DNA of 64,000 nucleotides from Escherichia coli (GTDB lineage Bacteria; Pseudomonadota; Gammaproteobacteria; Enterobacterales; Enterobacteriaceae). The position numbers and the translations under genes are program-made. The notes under the pieces were generated by a model. The model ran no database searches and was not told the origin of the DNA. It saw nothing but the letters and a program-made list of their open reading frames with translations. The stretch lies in NCBI RefSeq assembly GCF_003018255.1, contig NZ_CP027440.1. One strand, written 5' to 3'. Each line of letters opens with the position of its first letter. The first letter of the stretch is position 1. Below are positions 1,077 to 58,249 of the stretch, in pieces.

Positions 1077-3434
<2,358 letters not shown>

Positions 3435-3438
3435 TTAG

Positions 3439-3690
<252 letters not shown>

Positions 3691-40350: not shown

Positions 40351-41724
40351 ATGGCACTTTGGGGCGGGCGTTTTACCCAGGCAGCAGATCAACGGTTCAA
40401 ACAATTCAACGACTCACTGCGCTTTGATTACCGTCTGGCGGAGCAGGATATTGTTGGCTCTGTGGCCTGGTCCAAAGCCCTGGTAACGGTCGGCGTGTTA
40501 ACCGCAGAAGAGCAGGCGCAACTGGAAGAGGCGCTGAACGTGCTGCTGGAAGATGTTCGCGCCAGGCCACAACAAATCCTTGAAAGCGACGCCGAAGATA
40601 TCCATAGCTGGGTGGAAAGCAAACTGATCGACAAAGTGGGTCAGTTAGGCAAAAAACTGCATACCGGGCGTAGCCGTAATGATCAGGTAGCAACTGACCT
40701 GAAACTGTGGTGCAAAGATACCGTTAGCGAGTTGCTGACGGCTAACCGGCAGTTACAATCCGCTCTGGTCGAGACCGCGCAGAACAATCAGGACGCGGTG
40801 ATGCCGGGTTACACTCACCTGCAACGCGCCCAGCCGGTGACGTTCGCTCACTGGTGCCTGGCCTACGTTGAGATGCTGGCGCGTGATGAAAGCCGTTTGC
40901 AGGACGCGCTTAAGCGTCTGGATGTCAGCCCGCTAGGCTGTGGCGCACTGGCAGGAACGGCCTATGAAATCGACCGTGAACAGTTAGCAGGCTGGCTGGG
41001 CTTTGCTTCGGCGACCCGTAACAGTCTCGACAGCGTTTCTGACCGTGACCATGTGCTGGAACTGCTTTCTGCTGCCGCTATCGGCATGGTGCATCTGTCG
41101 CGTTTTGCTGAAGATCTGATTTTCTTTAACACCGGCGAAGCGGGGTTTGTGGAGCTTTCTGACCGTGTGACTTCCGGTTCATCATTAATGCCGCAGAAGA
41201 AAAACCCGGATGCGCTGGAGCTGATTCGCGGTAAATGCGGTCGGGTGCAGGGGGCGTTAACCGGCATGATGATGACGCTGAAAGGTTTGCCGCTGGCTTA
41301 CAACAAAGATATGCAGGAAGACAAAGAAGGTCTGTTCGACGCGCTCGATACCTGGCTGGACTGCCTGCATATGGCGGCGCTGGTGCTGGACGGCATTCAG
41401 GTGAAACGTCCGCGTTGCCAGGAAGCGGCGCAGCAGGGTTACGCCAACGCTACTGAACTGGCGGATTATCTGGTGGCGAAAGGCGTACCGTTCCGCGAGG
41501 CGCACCATATTGTGGGTGAAGCTGTGGTGGAAGCCATTCGTCAGGGCAAAGCGTTGGAAGATCTGCCGCTCAGTGAGTTGCAGAAATTCAGCCAGGTGAT
41601 TGGCGAAGATGTCTATCCGATTCTGTCGCTGCAATCGTGCCTCGACAAGCGTGCTGCAAAAGGCGGCGTCTCACCGCAGCAGGTGGCGCAGGCGATTGCT
41701 TTTGCGCAAGCTCGGTTAGAGTAG
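40351..41724 (+). CDS. argH: Argininosuccinate lyase
   Basis: 457-aa [37 protein letters not shown]... Confidence 0.95.
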
Positions 41725-41764
41725 TTTGTTTATATTGCTCCCCTGAAAATGGGGAGCTTACCAC

Positions 41765-41818
41765 GCCTACAAAGTGCGACACTTCGTAGGCGGATAAGGC
41801 GTTTACGCCGCATCAGGC
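41765..41818. repeat. REP element downstream of argH
   Basis: gcctacaaagtgcgacacttcgtaggcggataaggcgtttacgccgcatcaggc; preceded by hairpin gctcccctgaaaatggggagc (41737-41757). Confidence 0.55.
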
Positions 41819-42221
41819 AGAAATTTGTCAGTATTCTGGTGACCTTAAATTTAACGCCCAACCAGAACCATTATTTGTCACATTCCTTTTTATTCTTGCG
41901 TCTTCTTTACCTTCACTCTCCCCATAAAAATTATATTTTCAATACATCAGCCAATACATACTTTAATTAATTGAATATAATTCATTTCTATTGCTGTGTT
42001 CATTTTTAATGATTAATGGAGTTTGTTATGTGATTATTTAACGTGTTGTTTTAACGATGATAGCTAATTATTCAGGTGGTTTTTGAGGGTGTTTTTTCTC
42101 CTCGGTAGAAATTTTTATTTTTAATGTGATCATGGTTGAATAATCGCTCTTTCTCTCTTGTATGGTAGTAGGCGCAAAATTAAGTTTGAAACGTCTATTT
42201 ACAACACAGGAGATTGCAATA

Positions 42222-43436
42222 ATGAAAATTATTGCTGCAGATGTTTTTGTTACTTGCCCAGGGCGTAATTTCGTTACGCTTAAAATAACCACTGCAAGCG
42301 GACTTTGTGGATTAGGAGATGCCACGTTAAATGGTCGCGAATTGTCGGTCGCTTCTTATCTGAAAGATCATCTTTGTCCACAACTAATTGGCCGCGATGC
42401 CAGCCGTATCGAAGATATCTGGCAATTCTTTTATAAAGGTGCTTACTGGCGACGTGGCCCCGTCACGATGTCAGCCATTTCTGCCATTGATATGGCGTTG
42501 TGGGATATCAAAGCAAAAGCGGCAAATATGCCATTGTATCAACTGCTTGGTGGTGCTTCTCGTGAAGGCGTTATGGTTTATTGCCACACCACCGGGCGTA
42601 CGATTGATGAAGTCCTTGAAGACTATGCAAAGCACCAGCAGATGGGCTTTAAGGCGATTCGTGTGCAGTGTGGTGTACCGGGTATGCAAACCACCTATGG
42701 TCTGGCGAAGGGCAAAGGACTGGCGTATGAACCAGCAACCAAAGGCCTGTGGCCAGAAGAGCAGTTGTGGTCTTCAGAAAAGTATCTCGATTTTACGCCG
42801 AAGTTATTTGAAGCGGTGCGTAATAAGTTCGGTTTTAACGAACATCTGTTGCATGACATGCACCATCGCCTGACCCCCATCGAAGCGGCGCGCTTTGGGA
42901 AGAGCATTGAAGATTACCGCCTGTTCTGGATGGAAGATCCGACGCCTGCCGAGAATCAGGAATGTTTTCGTCTGATTCGTCAGCATACCGTGACGCCGAT
43001 TGCGGTCGGTGAAGTGTTTAACAGTATCTGGGACTGCAAGCAGTTAATCGAAGAGCAGCTGATTGACTATATTCGCACGACGATTACCCATGCAGGCGGC
43101 ATTACCGGGATGCGACGGATTGCCGATTTTGCATCGCTTTATCAGGTACGTACCGGTTCGCATGGCCCTTCAGATTTATCGCCTGTTTGCCATGCGGCGG
43201 CGCTGCATTTTGACCTCTGGGTGCCAAACTTTGGCGTTCAGGAGTACATGGGCTATTCCGAACAAATGCTTGAAGTCTTCCCGCATAGCTGGCGCTTCGA
43301 TGAAGGTTATATGCACCCAGGCGATGAACCGGGGCTGGGTATTTCTTTCGATGAGAAACTGGCGGCGAAATATCCGTATGACCCGGCGTATCTCCCCGTC
43401 GCACGACTGGAAGATGGCACATTGTGGAACTGGTAA
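42222..43436 (+). CDS. Enolase-superfamily D-mannonate dehydratase-like protein (RspA/ManD paralog)
   Basis: Track ORF 42162..43436 trimmed to ATG 42222 after AGGAGA SD ([24 protein letters not shown]..., 404 aa); motifs [15 protein letters not shown] and FWMEDP; near-colinear with recalled K-12 RspA. Confidence 0.85.
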
Positions 43437-43502
43437 TAGCGGTTCGCTTAATTATTTTCTGAATATTCATCAAATCGATTAATTCCGCTCAAGGAGCTAA
43501 AA

Positions 43503-44786
43503 ATGGACGTTGATGTGTCAACCAGTGTTGCGGGTAATAAACCGCAACGGATTCGTCGTATTCAGACAGTGACCCTGGTTTTATTATTTATGGCGGGGAT
43601 CGTTAATTTTCTCGACCGTTCGTCATTGAGCGTGGCAGGTGAAGCAATTCGTGGCGAGTTAGGATTATCCGCTACCGAGTTTGGTGTTTTGCTTTCTGCA
43701 TTTTCTCTGTCTTATGGTTTTTCACAACTTCCTTCCGGTATTTTGCTAGACCGCTTTGGCCCACGAATAGTGTTAGGCGCAGGCTTAATATTCTGGTCAT
43801 TAATGCAGGCATTAACAGGAATGGTTAATTCTTTTAGCCACTTTATTTTAATGCGTATCGGTCTGGGTATTGGCGAAGCGCCATTTATGCCTGCGGGAGT
43901 AAAGTCGATCACCGACTGGTATGCGCAAAAAGAACGCGGCACGGCGCTGGGGATTTTTAACTCATCTACCGTTATCGGTCAGGCTATCGCGCCTCCTGCT
44001 CTTGTATTGATGCAACTGGCATGGGGCTGGCGGACGATGTTTGTCATCATCGGCGTAGCAGGGATTCTGGTTGGGATCTGTTGGTACGCGTGGTATCGCA
44101 ACCGGGCGCAGTTTGTCCTGACCGAGGAAGAACGGACATATCTCTCCGCGCCGGTTAAACCGCGTCCACAGTTACAATTTAGCGAGTGGCTGGCGCTGTT
44201 TAAGCATCGGACAACCTGGGGGATGATTTTAGGTTTCTCTGGCGTCAATTATACCGGTTGGCTCTACATCGCGTGGTTACCCGGTTATTTGCAGGCCGAA
44301 CAAGGTTTCAGTCTGGCGAAAACCGGTTGGGTGGCGGCAATTCCTTTCCTCGCGGCGGCGGTCGGGATGTGGGTTAACGGTATTGTTGTCGATCGGCTGG
44401 CGAAAAAAGGCTATGACCTGGCGAAGACGCGTAAAACGGCGATTGTCTGCGGTTTGATGATGTCGGCATTAGGCACGTTGCTGGTCGTGCAATCTTCCTC
44501 GCCAGCCCAGGCGGTAGCGTTTATCTCAATGGCGCTGTTCTGCGTGCATTTCGCGGGAACATCTGCATGGGGGCTGGTGCAGGTGATGGTGTCAGAAACA
44601 AAAGTGGCTTCCATCGCCGGGATTCAAAACTTTGGCAGTTTTGTTTTTGCTTCCTTTGCTCCGATCGTAACCGGTTGGGTCGTGGATACCACACACTCGT
44701 TTAATCTGGCGCTGGTTATCGCGGCCTGTGTGACGTTCACCGGGGCGCTGTGTTACTTCTTTATTGTCAAAGATCGGATTGAGTAA
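43503..44786 (+). CDS. MFS transporter, anion:cation symporter (ACS) type, probable hexuronate/aldonate permease
   Basis: 427-aa ORF after AAGGAG SD; 12-TM profile; resembles ExuT/GudP/DgoT-type acid-sugar permeases. Confidence 0.8.
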   Translation: MDVDVSTSVAGNKPQRIRRIQTVTLVLLFMAGIVNFLDRSSLSVAGEAIRGELGLSATEFGVLLSAFSLSYGFSQLPSGILLDRFGPRIVLGAGLIFWSLMQALTGMVNSFSHFILMRIGLGIGEAPFMPAGVKSITDWYAQKERGTALGIFNSSTVIGQAIAPPALVLMQLAWGWRTMFVIIGVAGILVGICWYAWYRNRAQFVLTEEERTYLSAPVKPRPQLQFSEWLALFKHRTTWGMILGFSGVNYTGWLYIAWLPGYLQAEQGFSLAKTGWVAAIPFLAAAVGMWVNGIVVDRLAKKGYDLAKTRKTAIVCGLMMSALGTLLVVQSSSPAQAVAFISMALFCVHFAGTSAWGLVQVMVSETKVASIAGIQNFGSFVFASFAPIVTGWVVDTTHSFNLALVIAACVTFTGALCYFFIVKDRIE

Positions 44787-44825
44787 CCGTTACTATCAGG
44801 CTCTCTTGCTGTGGGCCTGTAGAAT

Positions 44826-44942
44826 AAAAAAAAGCGGATCCTGGAGATCCGCAAAAGTTCACGTTGGCTTTAGTTATTCGAGTTGAGAAACTCTCGAAAC
44901 GGGCAGTGACTTCAAGGGTTAAAAGAGGTGCCGCTCCGTTTC
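44826..44942 (-). ncRNA. oxyS: OxyS small regulatory RNA
   Basis: Reverse complement reads GAAACGGAGCGGCACCTCTTTTAACCCTTGAAGTCA...GCGGATCTCCAGGATCCGCTTTTTTTT, matching recalled OxyS with its 3' terminator hairpin; divergent from oxyR. Confidence 0.85.
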
Positions 44943-45037
44943 TGTGAGCAATTATCAGTCAGAATGCTTGATAGGGATAATCGTTCGTTGCTATGCTACC
45001 TATCGCCGCGAACTATCGTGGCAATGGAGGATGGATA
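44943..45037. promoter_or_regulatory. oxyS/oxyR divergent promoter region with OxyR binding site
   Basis: Intergenic between oxyS 5' end and oxyR start; position inferred from the known architecture, motifs not individually verified. Confidence 0.5.
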
Positions 45038-45955
45038 ATGAATATTCGTGATCTTGAGTACCTGGTGGCATTGGCCGAACACCGCCATTTTCGGCGTGCG
45101 GCAGATTCCTGCCACGTTAGCCAGCCGACGCTTAGCGGGCAAATTCGTAAGCTGGAAGATGAGTTGGGTGTGATGTTGCTGGAGCGGACCAGCCGTAAAG
45201 TGTTATTCACCCAGGCGGGAATGCTGCTGGTGGATCAGGCGCGTACCGTGCTGCGTGAGGTGAAAGTCCTTAAAGAGATGGCAAGCCAGCAGGGCGAGAC
45301 GATGTCCGGACCGCTGCATATTGGTCTGATTCCCACGGTTGGACCGTACCTGCTACCGCATATTATCCCGATGCTGCACCAGACCTTTCCAAAGCTGGAA
45401 ATGTATCTGCATGAAGCACAGACCCACCAGTTACTGGCGCAACTGGACAGCGGCAAACTCGATTGCGTGATCCTCGCGCTGGTGAAAGAGAGCGAAGCAT
45501 TCATTGAAGTGCCGTTGTTTGATGAGCCAATGTTGCTGGCTATCTATGAAGACCATCCGTGGGCGAACCGCGAATGCGTACCGATGGCCGATCTGGCAGG
45601 GGAAAAACTGCTGATGCTGGAAGATGGTCACTGTTTGCGCGATCAGGCAATGGGTTTCTGTTTTGAAGCCGGGGCGGATGAAGATACACACTTCCGCGCG
45701 ACCAGCCTGGAAACTCTGCGCAACATGGTGGCGGCAGGTAGCGGGATCACTTTACTGCCTGCGCTGGCTGTGCCGCCGGAACGCAAACGTGATGGGGTTG
45801 TTTATCTGCCATGCATTAAGCCGGAACCACGCCGCACTATTGGCCTGGTTTATCGTCCTGGCTCACCACTGCGCAGCCGCTATGAGCAGCTGGCAGAGGC
45901 CATCCGCGCAAGAATGGATGGCCATTTCGATAAAGTGTTAAAACAGGCGGTTTAA
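45038..45955 (+). CDS. oxyR: LysR-family oxidative-stress regulator OxyR
   Basis: Track ORF 44993..45955 trimmed to [40 protein letters not shown]... (305 aa). Confidence 0.95.
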
Positions 45956-47338
45956 GCCATTTAGCGCAGCTACCCGATAGGCTTCCGCCATCGTCGGGTA
46001 GTTAAAGGTGGTGTTGACGAAGTACTCAATAGTGTTGCCGCCACCTTTCTGTTCCATAATCGCCTGACCGATATGAATAATTTCGGCAGCGCGCTCGCCA
46101 AAGCAGTGAATACCCAGAATCTCTTTTGTTTCCCGATGGAACAAAATTTTCAGCGTGCCCACGTTCATGCCGACGATTTGTGCACGTGCCAGATGTTTAA
46201 ACTGGGCGCGGCCCACTTCATATGGCACTTTCATCGCGGTCAGCTGCTGTTCGGTTTTGCCCACAGAGCTGATTTCCGGGATGGTGTAAATACCGGTAGG
46301 GATATCTTCAATCAGATGTGCGGTGGCTTCACCTTTCACCAGCGCCTGCGCGGCAATGCGCCCCTGGTCATAGGCCGCCGACGCCAGGCTCGGATAACCA
46401 ATCACGTCGCCCACCGCGTAAACGTGCGGCTGTGCGGTCTGATACATGCTGTTGACCTTCAGCTGTCCGCGGCTGTCAGTTTCCAGCCCAATGTTCTGTA
46501 ACGCCAGCGAATCGGTATTACCGGTGCGACCGTTGGCATAGAGCAGGCAGTCAGCTTTCAGTTTTTTACCCGACTTCAAATGCATGATCACACCGTCGTC
46601 ACAGCCTTCGATCTTCTCGTACTCTTCGTTGTGACGAATCACTACGCCACTGTTCCAGAAGTGATAGGAGAGAGAATCTGACATCTCTTGATCGAGAAAT
46701 GCCAGCAGGCGATCGCGGGTGTTGATCAGATCCACTTTTACATCCATACCGCGGAAGATCGACGCATATTCACAGCCGATCACTCCAGCACCATAGATAA
46801 GTACATGGCGCGGTTCGTGGTGCATGCTAAGAATTGAGTCGCTGTCGTAAATGCGTGGATGCGTGAAATCAACATCTGTTGGATGATATGGACGAGAGCC
46901 GCAAGCAATAACAAATTTTTCAGCGGTTAGTGTCTCGACGCTGCCGTCCGGGCAATCCAGCGCCAGCGTGTGCTCGTCAACAAAGCGAGCGTTCCCCTGC
47001 AATATTTCACAGTGATTACGTTCGTAAAATCCCTGACGCATGCGCGTTTGTTGATTAATCACGTTATCGGCATGGTTAAGGATATCGGCAAAAGAAGAGC
47101 GGAGCAGTCGCGAATGGTCGCTGTAAAGTGGGTTTTGATTAAATTCTATAATGCGGCTGACGGCGTGACGGAGAGCTTTCGACGGGATGGTGCCCCAGTG
47201 GGTGCAACCGCCGCCAACATTTTGATAACGCTCGATAACTGCGACGCGCGCACCTTGCTTAACCAGGCCCATTGCAGCGCCTTCGCCGCCGGGGCCGGAA
47301 CCTATTACTATGGCATCGTAATCGTAGGAATGTGGCAT
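45938..47338 (-). CDS. sthA: Soluble pyridine nucleotide transhydrogenase
   Basis: 466-aa [27 protein letters not shown]... (FAD/NAD Rossmann motifs); 3' end overlaps oxyR convergently by 18 nt. Confidence 0.95.
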
Positions 47339-49819: not shown

Positions 49820-49949
49820 GATGTATCCTGAAAAATTAAAGTACGCGGCGATTGTAGGGATTGCTCATCAGATGTCCAGATCTTGATGAATTCCTATTTG
49901 TGAGCTACGTCTGGACAGTAACTTGTTACAACCTGTAGCATCCACTTGC

Positions 49950-50160
49950 CGGTCCTGTGAGTTAATAGGGAATCCAGTGCGAATCTGGAGCTGACGCGCA
50001 GCGGTAAGGAAAGGTGCGATGATTGCGTTATGCGGACACTGCCATCCGGTGGGAAGTCATCATCTCTTAGTATCTTAGATACCCCTCCAAGCCCGAAGAC
50101 CTGCCGGCTAACGTCGCATCTGGTTCTCATCATCGCGTAATATTGATGAAACCTGCGGCA
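49950..50160 (+). ncRNA. Cobalamin (AdoCbl) riboswitch in the btuB 5' leader
   Basis: Long untranslated leader containing a B12-box-like element (ccaagcccgaagacctgccgg, ~50088-50107); boundaries approximate. Confidence 0.7.
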
Positions 50161-53245: not shown

Positions 53246-54787
<1,542 letters not shown>

Positions 54788-54872
54788 CCTTAAAGAAGCG
54801 TACTTTGCAGTGCTCACACAGATTGTCTGATAGAAAGTGAAAAGCAAGGCGTCTTGCGAAGCAGACTGATAC

Positions 54873-54948
54873 GTCCCCTTCGTCTAGAGGCCCAGGACAC
54901 CGCCCTTTCACGGCGGTAACAGGGGTTCGAATCCCCTAGGGGACGCCA
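54873..54948 (+). tRNA. gltT: tRNA-Glu (UUC) in the 16S-23S spacer
   Basis: GTCCCCTTCGTCTAGAGGCCCAGGACACCGCCCTTTCACGGCGGTAACAGGGGTTCGAATCCCCTAGGGGACGCCA. Confidence 0.95.
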
Positions 54949-55132
54949 CTTGCTGGTTTGTGAGTGAAAGTCACCTGCCTTAGTATCTCAAAACTCATCT
55001 TCGGGTGATGTTTGAGATATTTGCTCTTTAAAAATCTGGATCAAGCTGAAAATTGAAACACTGAACAACGAAAGTTGTTCGTGAGTCTCTCAAATTTTCG
55101 CAACTCTGAAGTGAAACATCTTCGGGTTGTGA

Positions 55133-58036
<2,904 letters not shown>

Positions 58037-58129
58037 ACAACGCCGAAGATGTTTTGGCGGATGAGAGAAGATTTTCAGCCTGATACAGATTAAATTAACC
58101 GGCGACAAGCGGGTTAATAAAACAGAATT

Positions 58130-58249
58130 TGCCTGGCGGCCGTAGCGCGGTGGCCCCACCTGACCCCATGCCGAACTCAGAAGTGAAACGCCGTAGCGCC
58201 GATGGTAGTGTGGGGTCTCCCCATGCGAGAGTAGGGAACTGCCAGGCAT
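58130..58249 (+). rRNA. rrfB: 5S ribosomal RNA
   Basis: TGCCTGGCGGCCGTAGCGCGGTGGCCCCACCTGACCCCATGCCGAACTCAG...GGGAACTGCCAGGCAT; 120 nt. Confidence 0.95.

What the first reader, a model, noticed from the sequence alone, without database searches (positions are those of the whole stretch)
44787..44942. Acquired MFS gene converges on oxyS with no intervening plus-strand terminator
The MFS ORF ends at 44786 and the oxyS 3' end (minus strand) is at about 44826. The only strong hairpin in between is the oxyS terminator, whose T-tract is on the minus strand; on the plus strand it is followed by aaaagttcacg. Read-through from the cassette would therefore be antisense to OxyS, a possible point of cross-talk between acid-sugar induction and the OxyS regulatory RNA.
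Basis: inference. Interest (0 to 1): 0.4.

Follow-up and report, generated by a model that had tools for sequence, protein, structure and literature searches.

The report
Gene cassette removed terminator beside oxyS
In about a third of E. coli genomes a two-gene sugar-acid cassette has replaced the terminator that normally shields the oxidative-stress RNA gene oxyS from its neighbour, so cassette transcripts probably run antisense through oxyS towards oxyR, but no functional effect has been shown.

Summary
The MFS gene ends at 44786. OxyS lies at 44826/7-44942 on the minus strand (Rfam 139.5 bits). The only strong hairpin between them is the oxyS terminator (44834-44852), which has U8 on the minus strand but AAAAGUUC on the plus strand. 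My terminator score is +43 in the oxyS direction and -62 in the plus direction. Nothing scores above 0 on the plus strand between the MFS stop and oxyR, and there is no C-rich, Rho-type stretch.

New context strengthens the observation. Cassette-free E. coli (3555 of 5426 genomes) and most other Enterobacteriaceae carry a dedicated plus-strand terminator (GCCTGGC-loop-GCCGGGC-T6) directly beside the oxyS terminator. The 3.1-kb manD-MFS cassette (1868 of 5426 genomes, and three other Escherichia species) replaced exactly that 54-bp segment.

Read-through would be antisense to OxyS and sense to oxyR. The cassette is a copy of an rspA-locus module with an rspA-type promoter and no regulator gene.

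Against special significance: Trabulsiella and Yokenella run argH straight into the oxyS hairpin, and oxyR and sthA overlap convergently nearby. Read-through and cross-talk remain untested inferences. This is a new member of a known kind, of modest interest.

The parts
40351..41724 (+). argH (argininosuccinate lyase). Its last two codons and stop differ from K-12 type, and this is the left edge of the replaced segment.
   Evidence: NCBIfam equivalog, 863 bits; alignment with the K-12-type locus
41737..41757 (+). Hairpin GCTCCCC-TGAAAAT-GGGGAGC just after argH. It has no U-tract (d=-21.7), so it is not a canonical terminator.
41787..41818 (.). REP-like palindromic element (GTAGGCGGATAAGGCGTTTACGCCGCATCAGGC).
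   Evidence: Sequence, nearby inverted repeat; assignment to REP rests on my knowledge of the consensus
41842..41997 (+). C-rich, G-poor untranslated stretch (C/G 3.5-7.3). Candidate Rho-utilisation region that would stop argH read-through before the cassette.
   Evidence: inference
42125..42171 (+). rspA-type promoter core of the cassette. It contains a TGTGATC box (42125-42131) and the conserved CTTGTATGGTAGTAG (42157-42171). The RspR box position (42154-42163) reads TCTCTTGTAT instead of ATACTTGTAT.
   Evidence: RspR box ATACnnGTAT from PMC8249747
42222..43436 (+). manD (D-mannonate dehydratase ManD, enolase superfamily; 91.6% aa identity to E. coli RspA).
   Evidence: NCBIfam NF043051 equivalog, 731 bits against a cutoff of 550; RefSeq annotation
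43503..44786 (+). MFS transporter related to the D-galactonate-transporter subfamily (below that subfamily's cutoff). Orthologues at 85-89% identity sit in the rspA locus of Raoultella, Cedecea and Kluyvera.
44787..44825 (+). 39-nt spacer unique to cassette-type genomes. It contains a hairpin at 44797-44819 with no T-tract (d=-52). It occupies the place of the ancestral 54-bp segment that carries the argH terminator.
44826..44852 (-). oxyS intrinsic terminator: hairpin 44852..44834 plus U8 44833..44826. It scores d=+43 on the minus strand and d=-62 on the plus strand. Homology with cassette-free genomes resumes at 44826.
   Evidence: 3' end by K-12 Term-seq
44826..44942 (-). oxyS (OxyS sRNA), TSS at 44942.
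   Evidence: Rfam RF00035, 139.5 bits, E=4.6e-29
44943..45037 (.). Divergent oxyS/oxyR control region with the OxyR-binding repeats (GATAG...CTAT...CTATC...CTATC). Plus-strand promoter-like sites lie at 44952-44997.
   Evidence: OxyR operator assignment from established knowledge (Toledano et al. 1994), not tested here
45038..45955 (+). oxyR, on the same strand as the cassette, so any read-through across oxyS arrives here in the sense direction.
   Evidence: NCBIfam NF008361, 633 bits
45938..47338 (-). sthA. Its 3' end overlaps the oxyR 3' end by 18 bp, a neighbouring example of convergent genes with no terminator between them.
   Evidence: K-12 Term-seq sthA 3' end lies antisense within oxyR

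Best explanation
Shown: the junction is a structural by-product of an insertion. In an Escherichia ancestor, a 3.1-kb copy of an rspA-locus module (manD then MFS, with an rspA-type promoter and no regulator gene) replaced the 54-bp segment between the argH stop codon and the oxyS U-tract. That segment carried the conserved plus-strand argH terminator. The cassette therefore has no intrinsic terminator of its own.

Inferred: RNA polymerase leaving the MFS gene meets only the oxyS hairpin in the wrong orientation (A8-hairpin-AAAAGUUC). That can pause it but should not release it efficiently. With oxyS silent (no peroxide), a fraction of cassette transcripts should then extend antisense through oxyS and reach the oxyS/oxyR control region and oxyR in the sense direction. 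Stable 3' ends would probably be trimmed back to the hairpins. With oxyS strongly induced, head-on collisions at the hairpin and pairing with abundant OxyS should suppress these tails. The likely net effect on OxyS function is small, because it scales with cassette transcription.
For: - Anatomy and scores. Terminator score is +43 on the minus strand and -62 on the plus strand for the oxyS hairpin. The best plus-strand candidate between the MFS stop and oxyR scores -34. The K-12 argH terminator control scores +29.
- No rut-like composition after the MFS gene (C/G 0.57-1.06). The same measure finds C/G 3.5-7.3 downstream of argH.
- Replacement boundaries lie at the argH stop and at the A8 tract.
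- Clean dimorphism in E. coli: 1868 cassette-type and 3555 K-12-type genomes. The cassette junction is invariant in samples.
- The plus-strand terminator beside oxyS is recognisable in 23 of 37 species loci. It is absent from all three cassette-bearing Escherichia species.
- Cassette origin and promoter.
- Literature. A hairpin without release signals only pauses RNAP, and termination between convergent units needs opposing traffic (bioRxiv 10.1101/2022.10.23.513370). Plus-strand transcription starting inside oxyS towards oxyR is already reported in K-12 (PMC7967276).
Against: - No transcript data were available, so read-through is inferred from sequence only.
- The terminator score is a heuristic with modern energy parameters.
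- Rho/NusG can terminate untranslated or antisense RNA at poor rut sites.
- OxyR bound at its operator could block polymerase.
- The cassette may be transcribed too weakly to matter.
- In native rsp-locus contexts the MFS gene is also followed only by GC hairpins with poor U-tracts (d -9.9 to 0.2). Such hairpins may therefore suffice in vivo.
Confidence: 0.5

Rival explanations
1. Insulation is effective despite the missing canonical terminator. Cassette transcripts are stopped at or just beyond the oxyS hairpin by hairpin pausing plus Rho/NusG, by collision with basal oxyS transcription, or by OxyR acting as a roadblock. No meaningful antisense-OxyS RNA or oxyR read-through exists.
For: - A stable hairpin pair lies in the path (44797-44819 and 44834-44852).
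- About 250 nt of the path is untranslated.
- Bidirectional termination at hairpins that do not look like intrinsic terminators is widespread in E. coli.
- The orthologous MFS genes elsewhere also end with U-poor hairpins.
- Trabulsiella and Yokenella run argH into the same hairpin.
Against: - There is no U-tract (nT 0.15) and no C-rich, G-poor stretch.
- The collision mechanism needs active opposing transcription, but oxyS is essentially off without peroxide (established knowledge).
- A dedicated plus-strand terminator is conserved in most genera. This suggests the oxyS hairpin alone is not sufficient.
Confidence: 0.3
2. One reading: cassette read-through makes a functional cis-antisense RNA. 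It pairs with OxyS, lowers its level or activity, and so couples sugar-acid or carbon-starvation signals to the OxyS regulon.
For: - Perfect 110-nt complementarity would exist if read-through occurs.
- OxyS can be down-regulated by a pairing RNA: IspZ acts as a sponge (PMC7815308).
- The cassette promoter has a degenerate RspR box, so it may be less repressed than rspA.
Against: - Induced OxyS is very abundant, so a 3' tail of a weakly expressed transporter mRNA is unlikely to titrate it (my knowledge).
- When oxyS is induced, its own transcription should block the antisense.
- Nothing suggests selection for the arrangement. The spacer looks like junction debris, and the same junction is absent from two thirds of E. 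coli.
Confidence: 0.1
3. Reverse polarity: oxidative stress controls the cassette. Strong convergent oxyS transcription and abundant OxyS pair with or collide against cassette transcripts. This truncates or destabilises manD-MFS mRNA through RNase III cleavage of the 3' duplex, and it cuts off read-through into oxyR.
For: - The same geometry applies.
- The stoichiometry favours OxyS.
- The collision model gives the advantage to the more heavily transcribed unit.
Against: It requires read-through tails to exist in the first place. A 3' duplex often has little effect on upstream coding-region stability. No data are available.
Confidence: 0.15

Closest known systems
K-12-type argH/oxyS back-to-back terminator pair
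   Same: Same locus and the same oxyS terminator. A plus-strand gene converges on oxyS.
   Different: K-12 type has a dedicated plus-strand terminator (GCCTGGCTTATCGCCGGGC+T6, d=+29) 11 nt from the oxyS A-tract. The cassette type has lost it.
Bidirectional / collision-dependent terminators between convergent E. coli genes (Ju et al. 2019; Wang et al., bioRxiv 10.1101/2022.10.23.513370)
   Same: A single hairpin-encoding element lies between convergent units, and one direction lacks an intrinsic-terminator look.
   Different: Here one partner (oxyS) is silent except under peroxide stress, so collisions cannot operate constitutively. No SEnd-seq evidence exists for this junction.
IspZ, an mRNA-derived sponge of OxyS (Adams et al. 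2021, PMC7815308)
   Same: An RNA derived from an mRNA that pairs with OxyS and lowers its level.
   Different: IspZ is a short, trans-encoded, Hfq-bound 5'UTR fragment with limited pairing. Here the RNA would be a cis-encoded, fully complementary 3' read-through tail that has never been observed.
RyeA(SraC)/SdsR(RyeB) overlapping antisense sRNA pair, and 'excludon'-type long 3' overlaps
   Same: Convergent or overlapping transcription opposite a regulatory RNA gene, with RNase III-type mutual effects (my knowledge).
   Different: Those pairs have their own promoters and documented transcripts. Here the antisense would arise only by read-through.
argH-to-oxyS junction of Trabulsiella and Yokenella
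   Same: A protein gene runs directly into the oxyS hairpin with no terminator of its own. The argH stop lies 3-9 nt before the A-tract.
   Different: The gene is the ancestral argH, not an inserted cassette. The junction arose independently.
rspA locus modules of other Enterobacteriaceae (Kluyvera ynfA-manD-MFS; Raoultella MFS-rspA-rspB; Cedecea)
   Same: Orthologous MFS (85-89% aa) and ManD/RspA. Same promoter core: TGTGATC-N22-(A/T)(T/C)(A/T)CTTGTATGGTAGT.
   Different: The cassette sits at argH/oxyS, lacks rspB and the GntR regulator, and has TCTC instead of ATAC in the left half of the RspR box.

Membership tests
Intrinsic (Rho-independent) terminator acting on the plus strand | Stable GC-rich hairpin | tested here: met
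   GCGGAUCCUGGAGAUCCGC, -10.3 kcal/mol
Intrinsic (Rho-independent) terminator acting on the plus strand | U-rich tract immediately 3' of the stem | tested here: not met
   Tail is AAAAGUUCACGUUGG, nT=0.15, d=-62. No plus-strand site with d>0 in 44760-45060; none in the tool scan
Symmetric bidirectional intrinsic terminator (A-tract / hairpin / T-tract) | A-tract 5' and T-tract 3' of one hairpin, so that both strands read hairpin plus U-tract | tested here: not met
   A8 lies upstream but AAAAGTT lies downstream on the plus strand. Only the minus strand gets a U-tract
Collision-dependent bidirectional terminator (Ju 2019 / Wang 2022) | Hairpin-encoding element between convergent transcription units | tested here: met
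Collision-dependent bidirectional terminator (Ju 2019 / Wang 2022) | Both units actively transcribed, with overlapping, precisely positioned 3' ends | not testable with these tools
   Needs SEnd-seq or Term-seq in a cassette-type strain. oxyS is off without H2O2 (knowledge)
Rho-dependent terminator | C-rich, G-poor untranslated stretch of about 80 nt (rut) | tested here: not met
   C/G 0.57-1.06 across 44787-45037. The control region 41842-41997 gives 3.5-7.3. This is a heuristic only
OxyS RNA (Rfam RF00035) | Covariance-model score above gathering threshold over the full model | tested here: met
   139.5 bits against 75, model positions 1-110
OxyS RNA (Rfam RF00035) | Divergent from oxyR with a shared OxyR operator | tested here: met
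   oxyR starts at 45038 on the opposite strand. Operator repeats were seen by eye only
cis-antisense RNA / sponge of OxyS | Complementarity to OxyS | tested here: met
   Trivially perfect, because it is the opposite strand of the same DNA
cis-antisense RNA / sponge of OxyS | Existence of the antisense transcript and an effect on OxyS | not testable with these tools
   No expression data. Literature searches found no report
D-mannonate dehydratase ManD (NCBIfam NF043051) | Equivalog HMM score above the curated cutoff | tested here: met
   731 bits against 550; PDB homologue 4il2 E=5e-270
RspR (YdfH)-repressed promoter | Palindromic RspR box ATACnnGTAT within the promoter | tested here: not met
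   The cassette has TCTCTTGTAT in the window, Nissle, E. whittamii and E1V33. rsp-locus promoters have ATACTTGTAT, or ATTCTTGTAT once. Box definition from PMC8249747. Binding itself was not tested

The most novel reading that the evidence does not exclude
A natural polymorphism splits E. coli into two wiring types. In cassette-type lineages (about one third of genomes, including Nissle 1917, 536 and O104:H4 C227-11), an rspA-type, probably cAMP-CRP-dependent and RspR-escaped promoter drives transcripts that read antisense through oxyS and into oxyR. This would set basal OxyR level, damp OxyS in a carbon-status-dependent way, and give a lineage-specific link between sugar-acid or starvation metabolism and the peroxide response.
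Probability: 0.08. Interest if true: 0.55.

Novelty: new member of a known kind. Interest (0 to 1): 0.3.

Why it matters
OxyS and OxyR are textbook regulators studied almost entirely in K-12. K-12 carries the insulated junction.

One third of sequenced E. coli, including probiotic and extraintestinal pathogenic lineages, lack that insulator because of a cassette insertion. If read-through is real, oxyR and OxyS expression in those strains could depend on cassette activity.

The two junction types also form a ready-made natural experiment on three questions:
- Why are dedicated back-to-back terminators conserved next to sRNA genes?
- How well does an orientation-asymmetric hairpin stop polymerase?
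- How important is opposing traffic for termination?

If read-through is negligible, the locus is simply an ordinary insertion scar.

Tried and rejected
- Plasmid search for a mobile copy of the cassette. The only hits were megabase-size records that are mislabelled chromosomes, so there is no evidence of plasmid carriage.
- Base composition. Cassette coding GC is 0.44-0.56, like the host. Composition therefore does not mark it as foreign; only the upstream 400 bp is AT-rich.
- Literature searches for antisense-OxyS, for argH/oxyS terminators and for ManD in CFT073. I found no report on this junction. The ManD enzymology paper (doi 10.1021/bi500837w) is not held.
- K-12 Term-seq tables. They list the OxyS 3' end but no argH 3' end, so I could not confirm experimentally that the K-12 argH terminator works.
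- My first manD coordinates (42223) were off by one. The 82-91% 'identities' were off-frame artefacts, corrected to 99%.
- The E. whittamii row of alignment A3 used wrong coordinates and should be ignored; one search replaces it.
- I considered the anti-OxyS stem-a hairpin plus UUUCUGUG (44900-44938, d=-36) as a cryptic plus-strand terminator. I rejected it as too weak, and it is present in K-12 as well.

Full report
WHAT IS THERE

The window is the E. coli argB-argH ... oxyS-oxyR-sthA region.
- Rfam finds OxyS at 44833..44942 on the minus strand (139.5 bits, full model).
- NCBIfam identifies argH (40351..41724), oxyR (45038..45955) and sthA (45938..47338, minus strand).
- Between argH and oxyS lie two plus-strand genes. 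The first is manD (42222..43436; ManD equivalog, 731 bits against a cutoff of 550). The second is an MFS transporter (43503..44786) related to the D-galactonate-transporter subfamily. RefSeq annotates them the same way in Nissle 1917.

CHECK OF THE OBSERVATION

The MFS stop codon is at 44784-44786. The plus-strand path then runs as follows:
- a 39-nt spacer, 44787-44825;
- A8, 44826-44833;
- the hairpin GCGGATCCTGGAGATCCGC, 44834-44852;
- AAAAGTTCACG.

On the minus strand the hairpin is followed by U8. K-12 Term-seq places the OxyS 3' end in this tract (PMC7815308 supplement).

I scored terminators with a d'Aubenton-Carafa-type score (ViennaRNA energies; use it as a relative measure).

| Element | Score d |
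|---|---|
| oxyS terminator, own (minus) orientation | +43 |
| Same hairpin read on the plus strand | -62 |
| Best plus-strand candidate, 44760-45060 | -34 |
| K-12-type argH terminator (control) | +29 |

The tool's own scan finds no plus-strand terminator after the MFS gene. The plus-strand RNA from the MFS stop to oxyR has C/G 0.57-1.06, so no rut-like stretch. The same measure gives 3.5-7.3 in a stretch downstream of argH (41842-41997).

In a cassette-free genome (L001), argH is followed by GCCTGGC-ttatc-GCCGGGC-TTTTTT. Eleven nucleotides later come the A8 tract and the oxyS hairpin. This is a back-to-back terminator pair.

Alignment shows that homology between the two genome types breaks at the argH stop codon and resumes exactly at the A8 tract. 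So 54 bp in K-12 type correspond to 3101 bp (41725-44825) here.

Among 5426 complete E. coli genomes, 1868 have the MFS-oxyS junction and 3555 have the argH-terminator-oxyS junction. Six sampled cassette junctions are nearly identical. They vary only in A-tract length (7-9) and one 5-bp duplication.

A scan of species-representative genomes with an OxyS 22-mer returned 37 loci.
- In 23 loci a hairpin+T6-8 element of the same type sits about 40 nt before the pattern. These include Citrobacter, Salmonella, Siccibacter, Franconibacter, Klebsiella spallanzanii and K-12-type E. coli. They also include three loci where other genes had been inserted next to oxyS.
- The three other Escherichia species with the cassette (E. 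whittamii, Escherichia sp. E1V33, Escherichia sp. MOD1-EC7003) all lack it. Their ManD and MFS are 99% identical to the window's.

The terminator-bearing state is therefore ancestral, and the cassette state is a derived insertion within Escherichia.

PERSPECTIVE

Terminator-less convergence on oxyS is not unique.
- In Trabulsiella (three loci) and Yokenella, the argH stop codon lies 3-9 nt from the oxyS A-tract with nothing in between.
- Pseudocitrobacter has only U-less hairpins.
- E. albertii has an eroded hairpin.
- In this very window, oxyR and sthA overlap convergently by 18 bp. The K-12 sthA 3' end maps antisense inside oxyR.
- A plus-strand oxyR TSS inside oxyS, overlapping OxyS by 41 nt, has been reported in K-12 (PMC7967276).

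WHERE THE CASSETTE COMES FROM AND HOW IT MAY BE EXPRESSED

The nearest MFS relatives outside Escherichia (85-89% aa) are in Raoultella, Cedecea, Kluyvera, Klebsiella aerogenes and others. They lie inside the rspA locus:
- Raoultella: ynfA-MFS-rspA-rspB.
- Cedecea: ynfA-rspA-rspB-...-MFS, convergent with a GntR/FCD regulator, then ydfG-dcp.
- Kluyvera: ynfA-manD-MFS-..., the same order as the cassette.

The cassette's ManD is 91.6% identical to E. coli RspA.

All these promoters share a TGTGATC box at fixed spacing from CTTGTATGGTAGT. RspR (YdfH) represses rspA through a footprint centred on ATACnnGTAT (PMC8249747). rsp-locus promoters read ATACTTGTAT. All four cassette promoters examined read TCTCTTGTAT.

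The cassette thus has an rspA-type promoter, no regulator gene, and a half-degenerate operator. It may be less tightly repressed than rspA, which is an inference. 'Acid-sugar induction' is plausible but unproven.

Upstream, argH in this genome also lacks a canonical terminator. It is followed by a U-less hairpin (41737-41757), a REP-like element, and then the C-rich stretch that probably serves Rho.

MECHANISM

- Shown: the geometry, the asymmetry of the hairpin, the loss of the conserved terminator, and its tight linkage to the cassette.
- Inferred: polymerases leaving the MFS gene pause at the hairpin but are not efficiently released.
- Literature: a hairpin element between convergent units acts mainly as a pause and positioning signal. 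Head-on plus trailing collisions are needed for release (bioRxiv 10.1101/2022.10.23.513370).
- Without peroxide, oxyS is silent. Read-through should then cross oxyS antisense and reach the OxyR operator and oxyR in the sense direction. That RNA is highly structured (MFE -83.9 kcal/mol, z=-3.2), and its ends would likely be trimmed to the hairpins.
- With peroxide, intense oxyS transcription and abundant OxyS should block or pair with these tails.
An effect of oxyS on the cassette mRNA, or of read-through on basal oxyR, seems somewhat more plausible. The most likely outcome is no measurable physiological effect.
- Rho/NusG action on the untranslated tail or an OxyR roadblock could also make insulation effective. 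These cannot be excluded by sequence.

VERDICT

However, the arrangement belongs to a well-known class (convergent units sharing an asymmetric hairpin). It has natural precedents at the same locus in other genera. Its functional reading is untested. I rate it a new member of a known kind, with interest 0.3.

Noticed in passing
window 42125-42171; L045 ~2390-2435; L046, L047, L048: The cassette's manD promoter shares a TGTGATC box and the core CTTGTATGGTAGT with every rspA-locus promoter examined. The left half of the published RspR box (ATACnnGTAT) reads TCTC in all four cassette copies, which suggests escape from RspR repression.
   Followed up: partly
L046 5001-7641; L047 1062-6284; L048 3674-6284: Orthologues of the cassette MFS (85-89% aa) lie inside the rspA locus of Raoultella, Cedecea and Kluyvera. 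The E. coli rspAB locus has lost this transporter, while a manD-MFS copy sits at argH/oxyS.
   Followed up: partly
window 41737-41997: In this genome argH itself has no canonical terminator. It is followed by a U-less hairpin, a REP-like element (41787-41818) and a strongly C-rich, G-poor stretch (41842-41997, C/G up to 7.3) that looks like a Rho entry site.
   Followed up: partly
window 44987, 44995, 45008-45009, 45023: Five linked SNPs in the OxyR operator / oxyR leader separate the window, Nissle, KTa008 and CUVET19 from K-12 and O157. Two cassette-type genomes (AMA1167, SCEC020022) carry the K-12 alleles, which indicates recombination mosaicism right next to the cassette.
   Followed up: no
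window 44826-44833; L004, L005, L006: The oxyS terminator U-tract varies from 7 to 9 residues among cassette-type strains. One strain (CUVET19-1704) has a 5-bp duplication (AGCGG) at the tract/hairpin border, which could affect OxyS 3'-end formation or Hfq binding.
   Followed up: no
L016, L021, L031, L037, L040 (Citrobacter spp.): The argH-oxyS gap is an insertion hot spot in Citrobacter as well. Some insertions keep a plus-strand terminator beside oxyS (L016, L031, L040). Two have AT-rich DNA and no terminator (L021, L037).
   Followed up: partly
L009 (E. albertii), about 40-70 nt before the OxyS pattern: E. albertii keeps the T6 tract of the argH terminator but its hairpin is eroded (d=-18.6). 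This is an intermediate state between the K-12 and Trabulsiella types.
   Followed up: no
window 45938-45955: oxyR and sthA coding regions overlap convergently by 18 bp with no terminator between them. K-12 Term-seq lists the sthA 3' end as antisense within oxyR.
   Followed up: no
NZ_AP038246.1 3524692-3528969 (hit H1): The genome closest to the window (100% identity) differs by an IS1A insertion of about 777 bp somewhere within the argH-cassette-oxyR interval.
   Followed up: no
window 49933-50122; 53246-58247; 55026-55125; 3419-3471: Other Rfam hits in the window are a cobalamin riboswitch, a complete rrn operon with tRNAs, StyR-44 and the L31 leader. All look ordinary.
   Followed up: no
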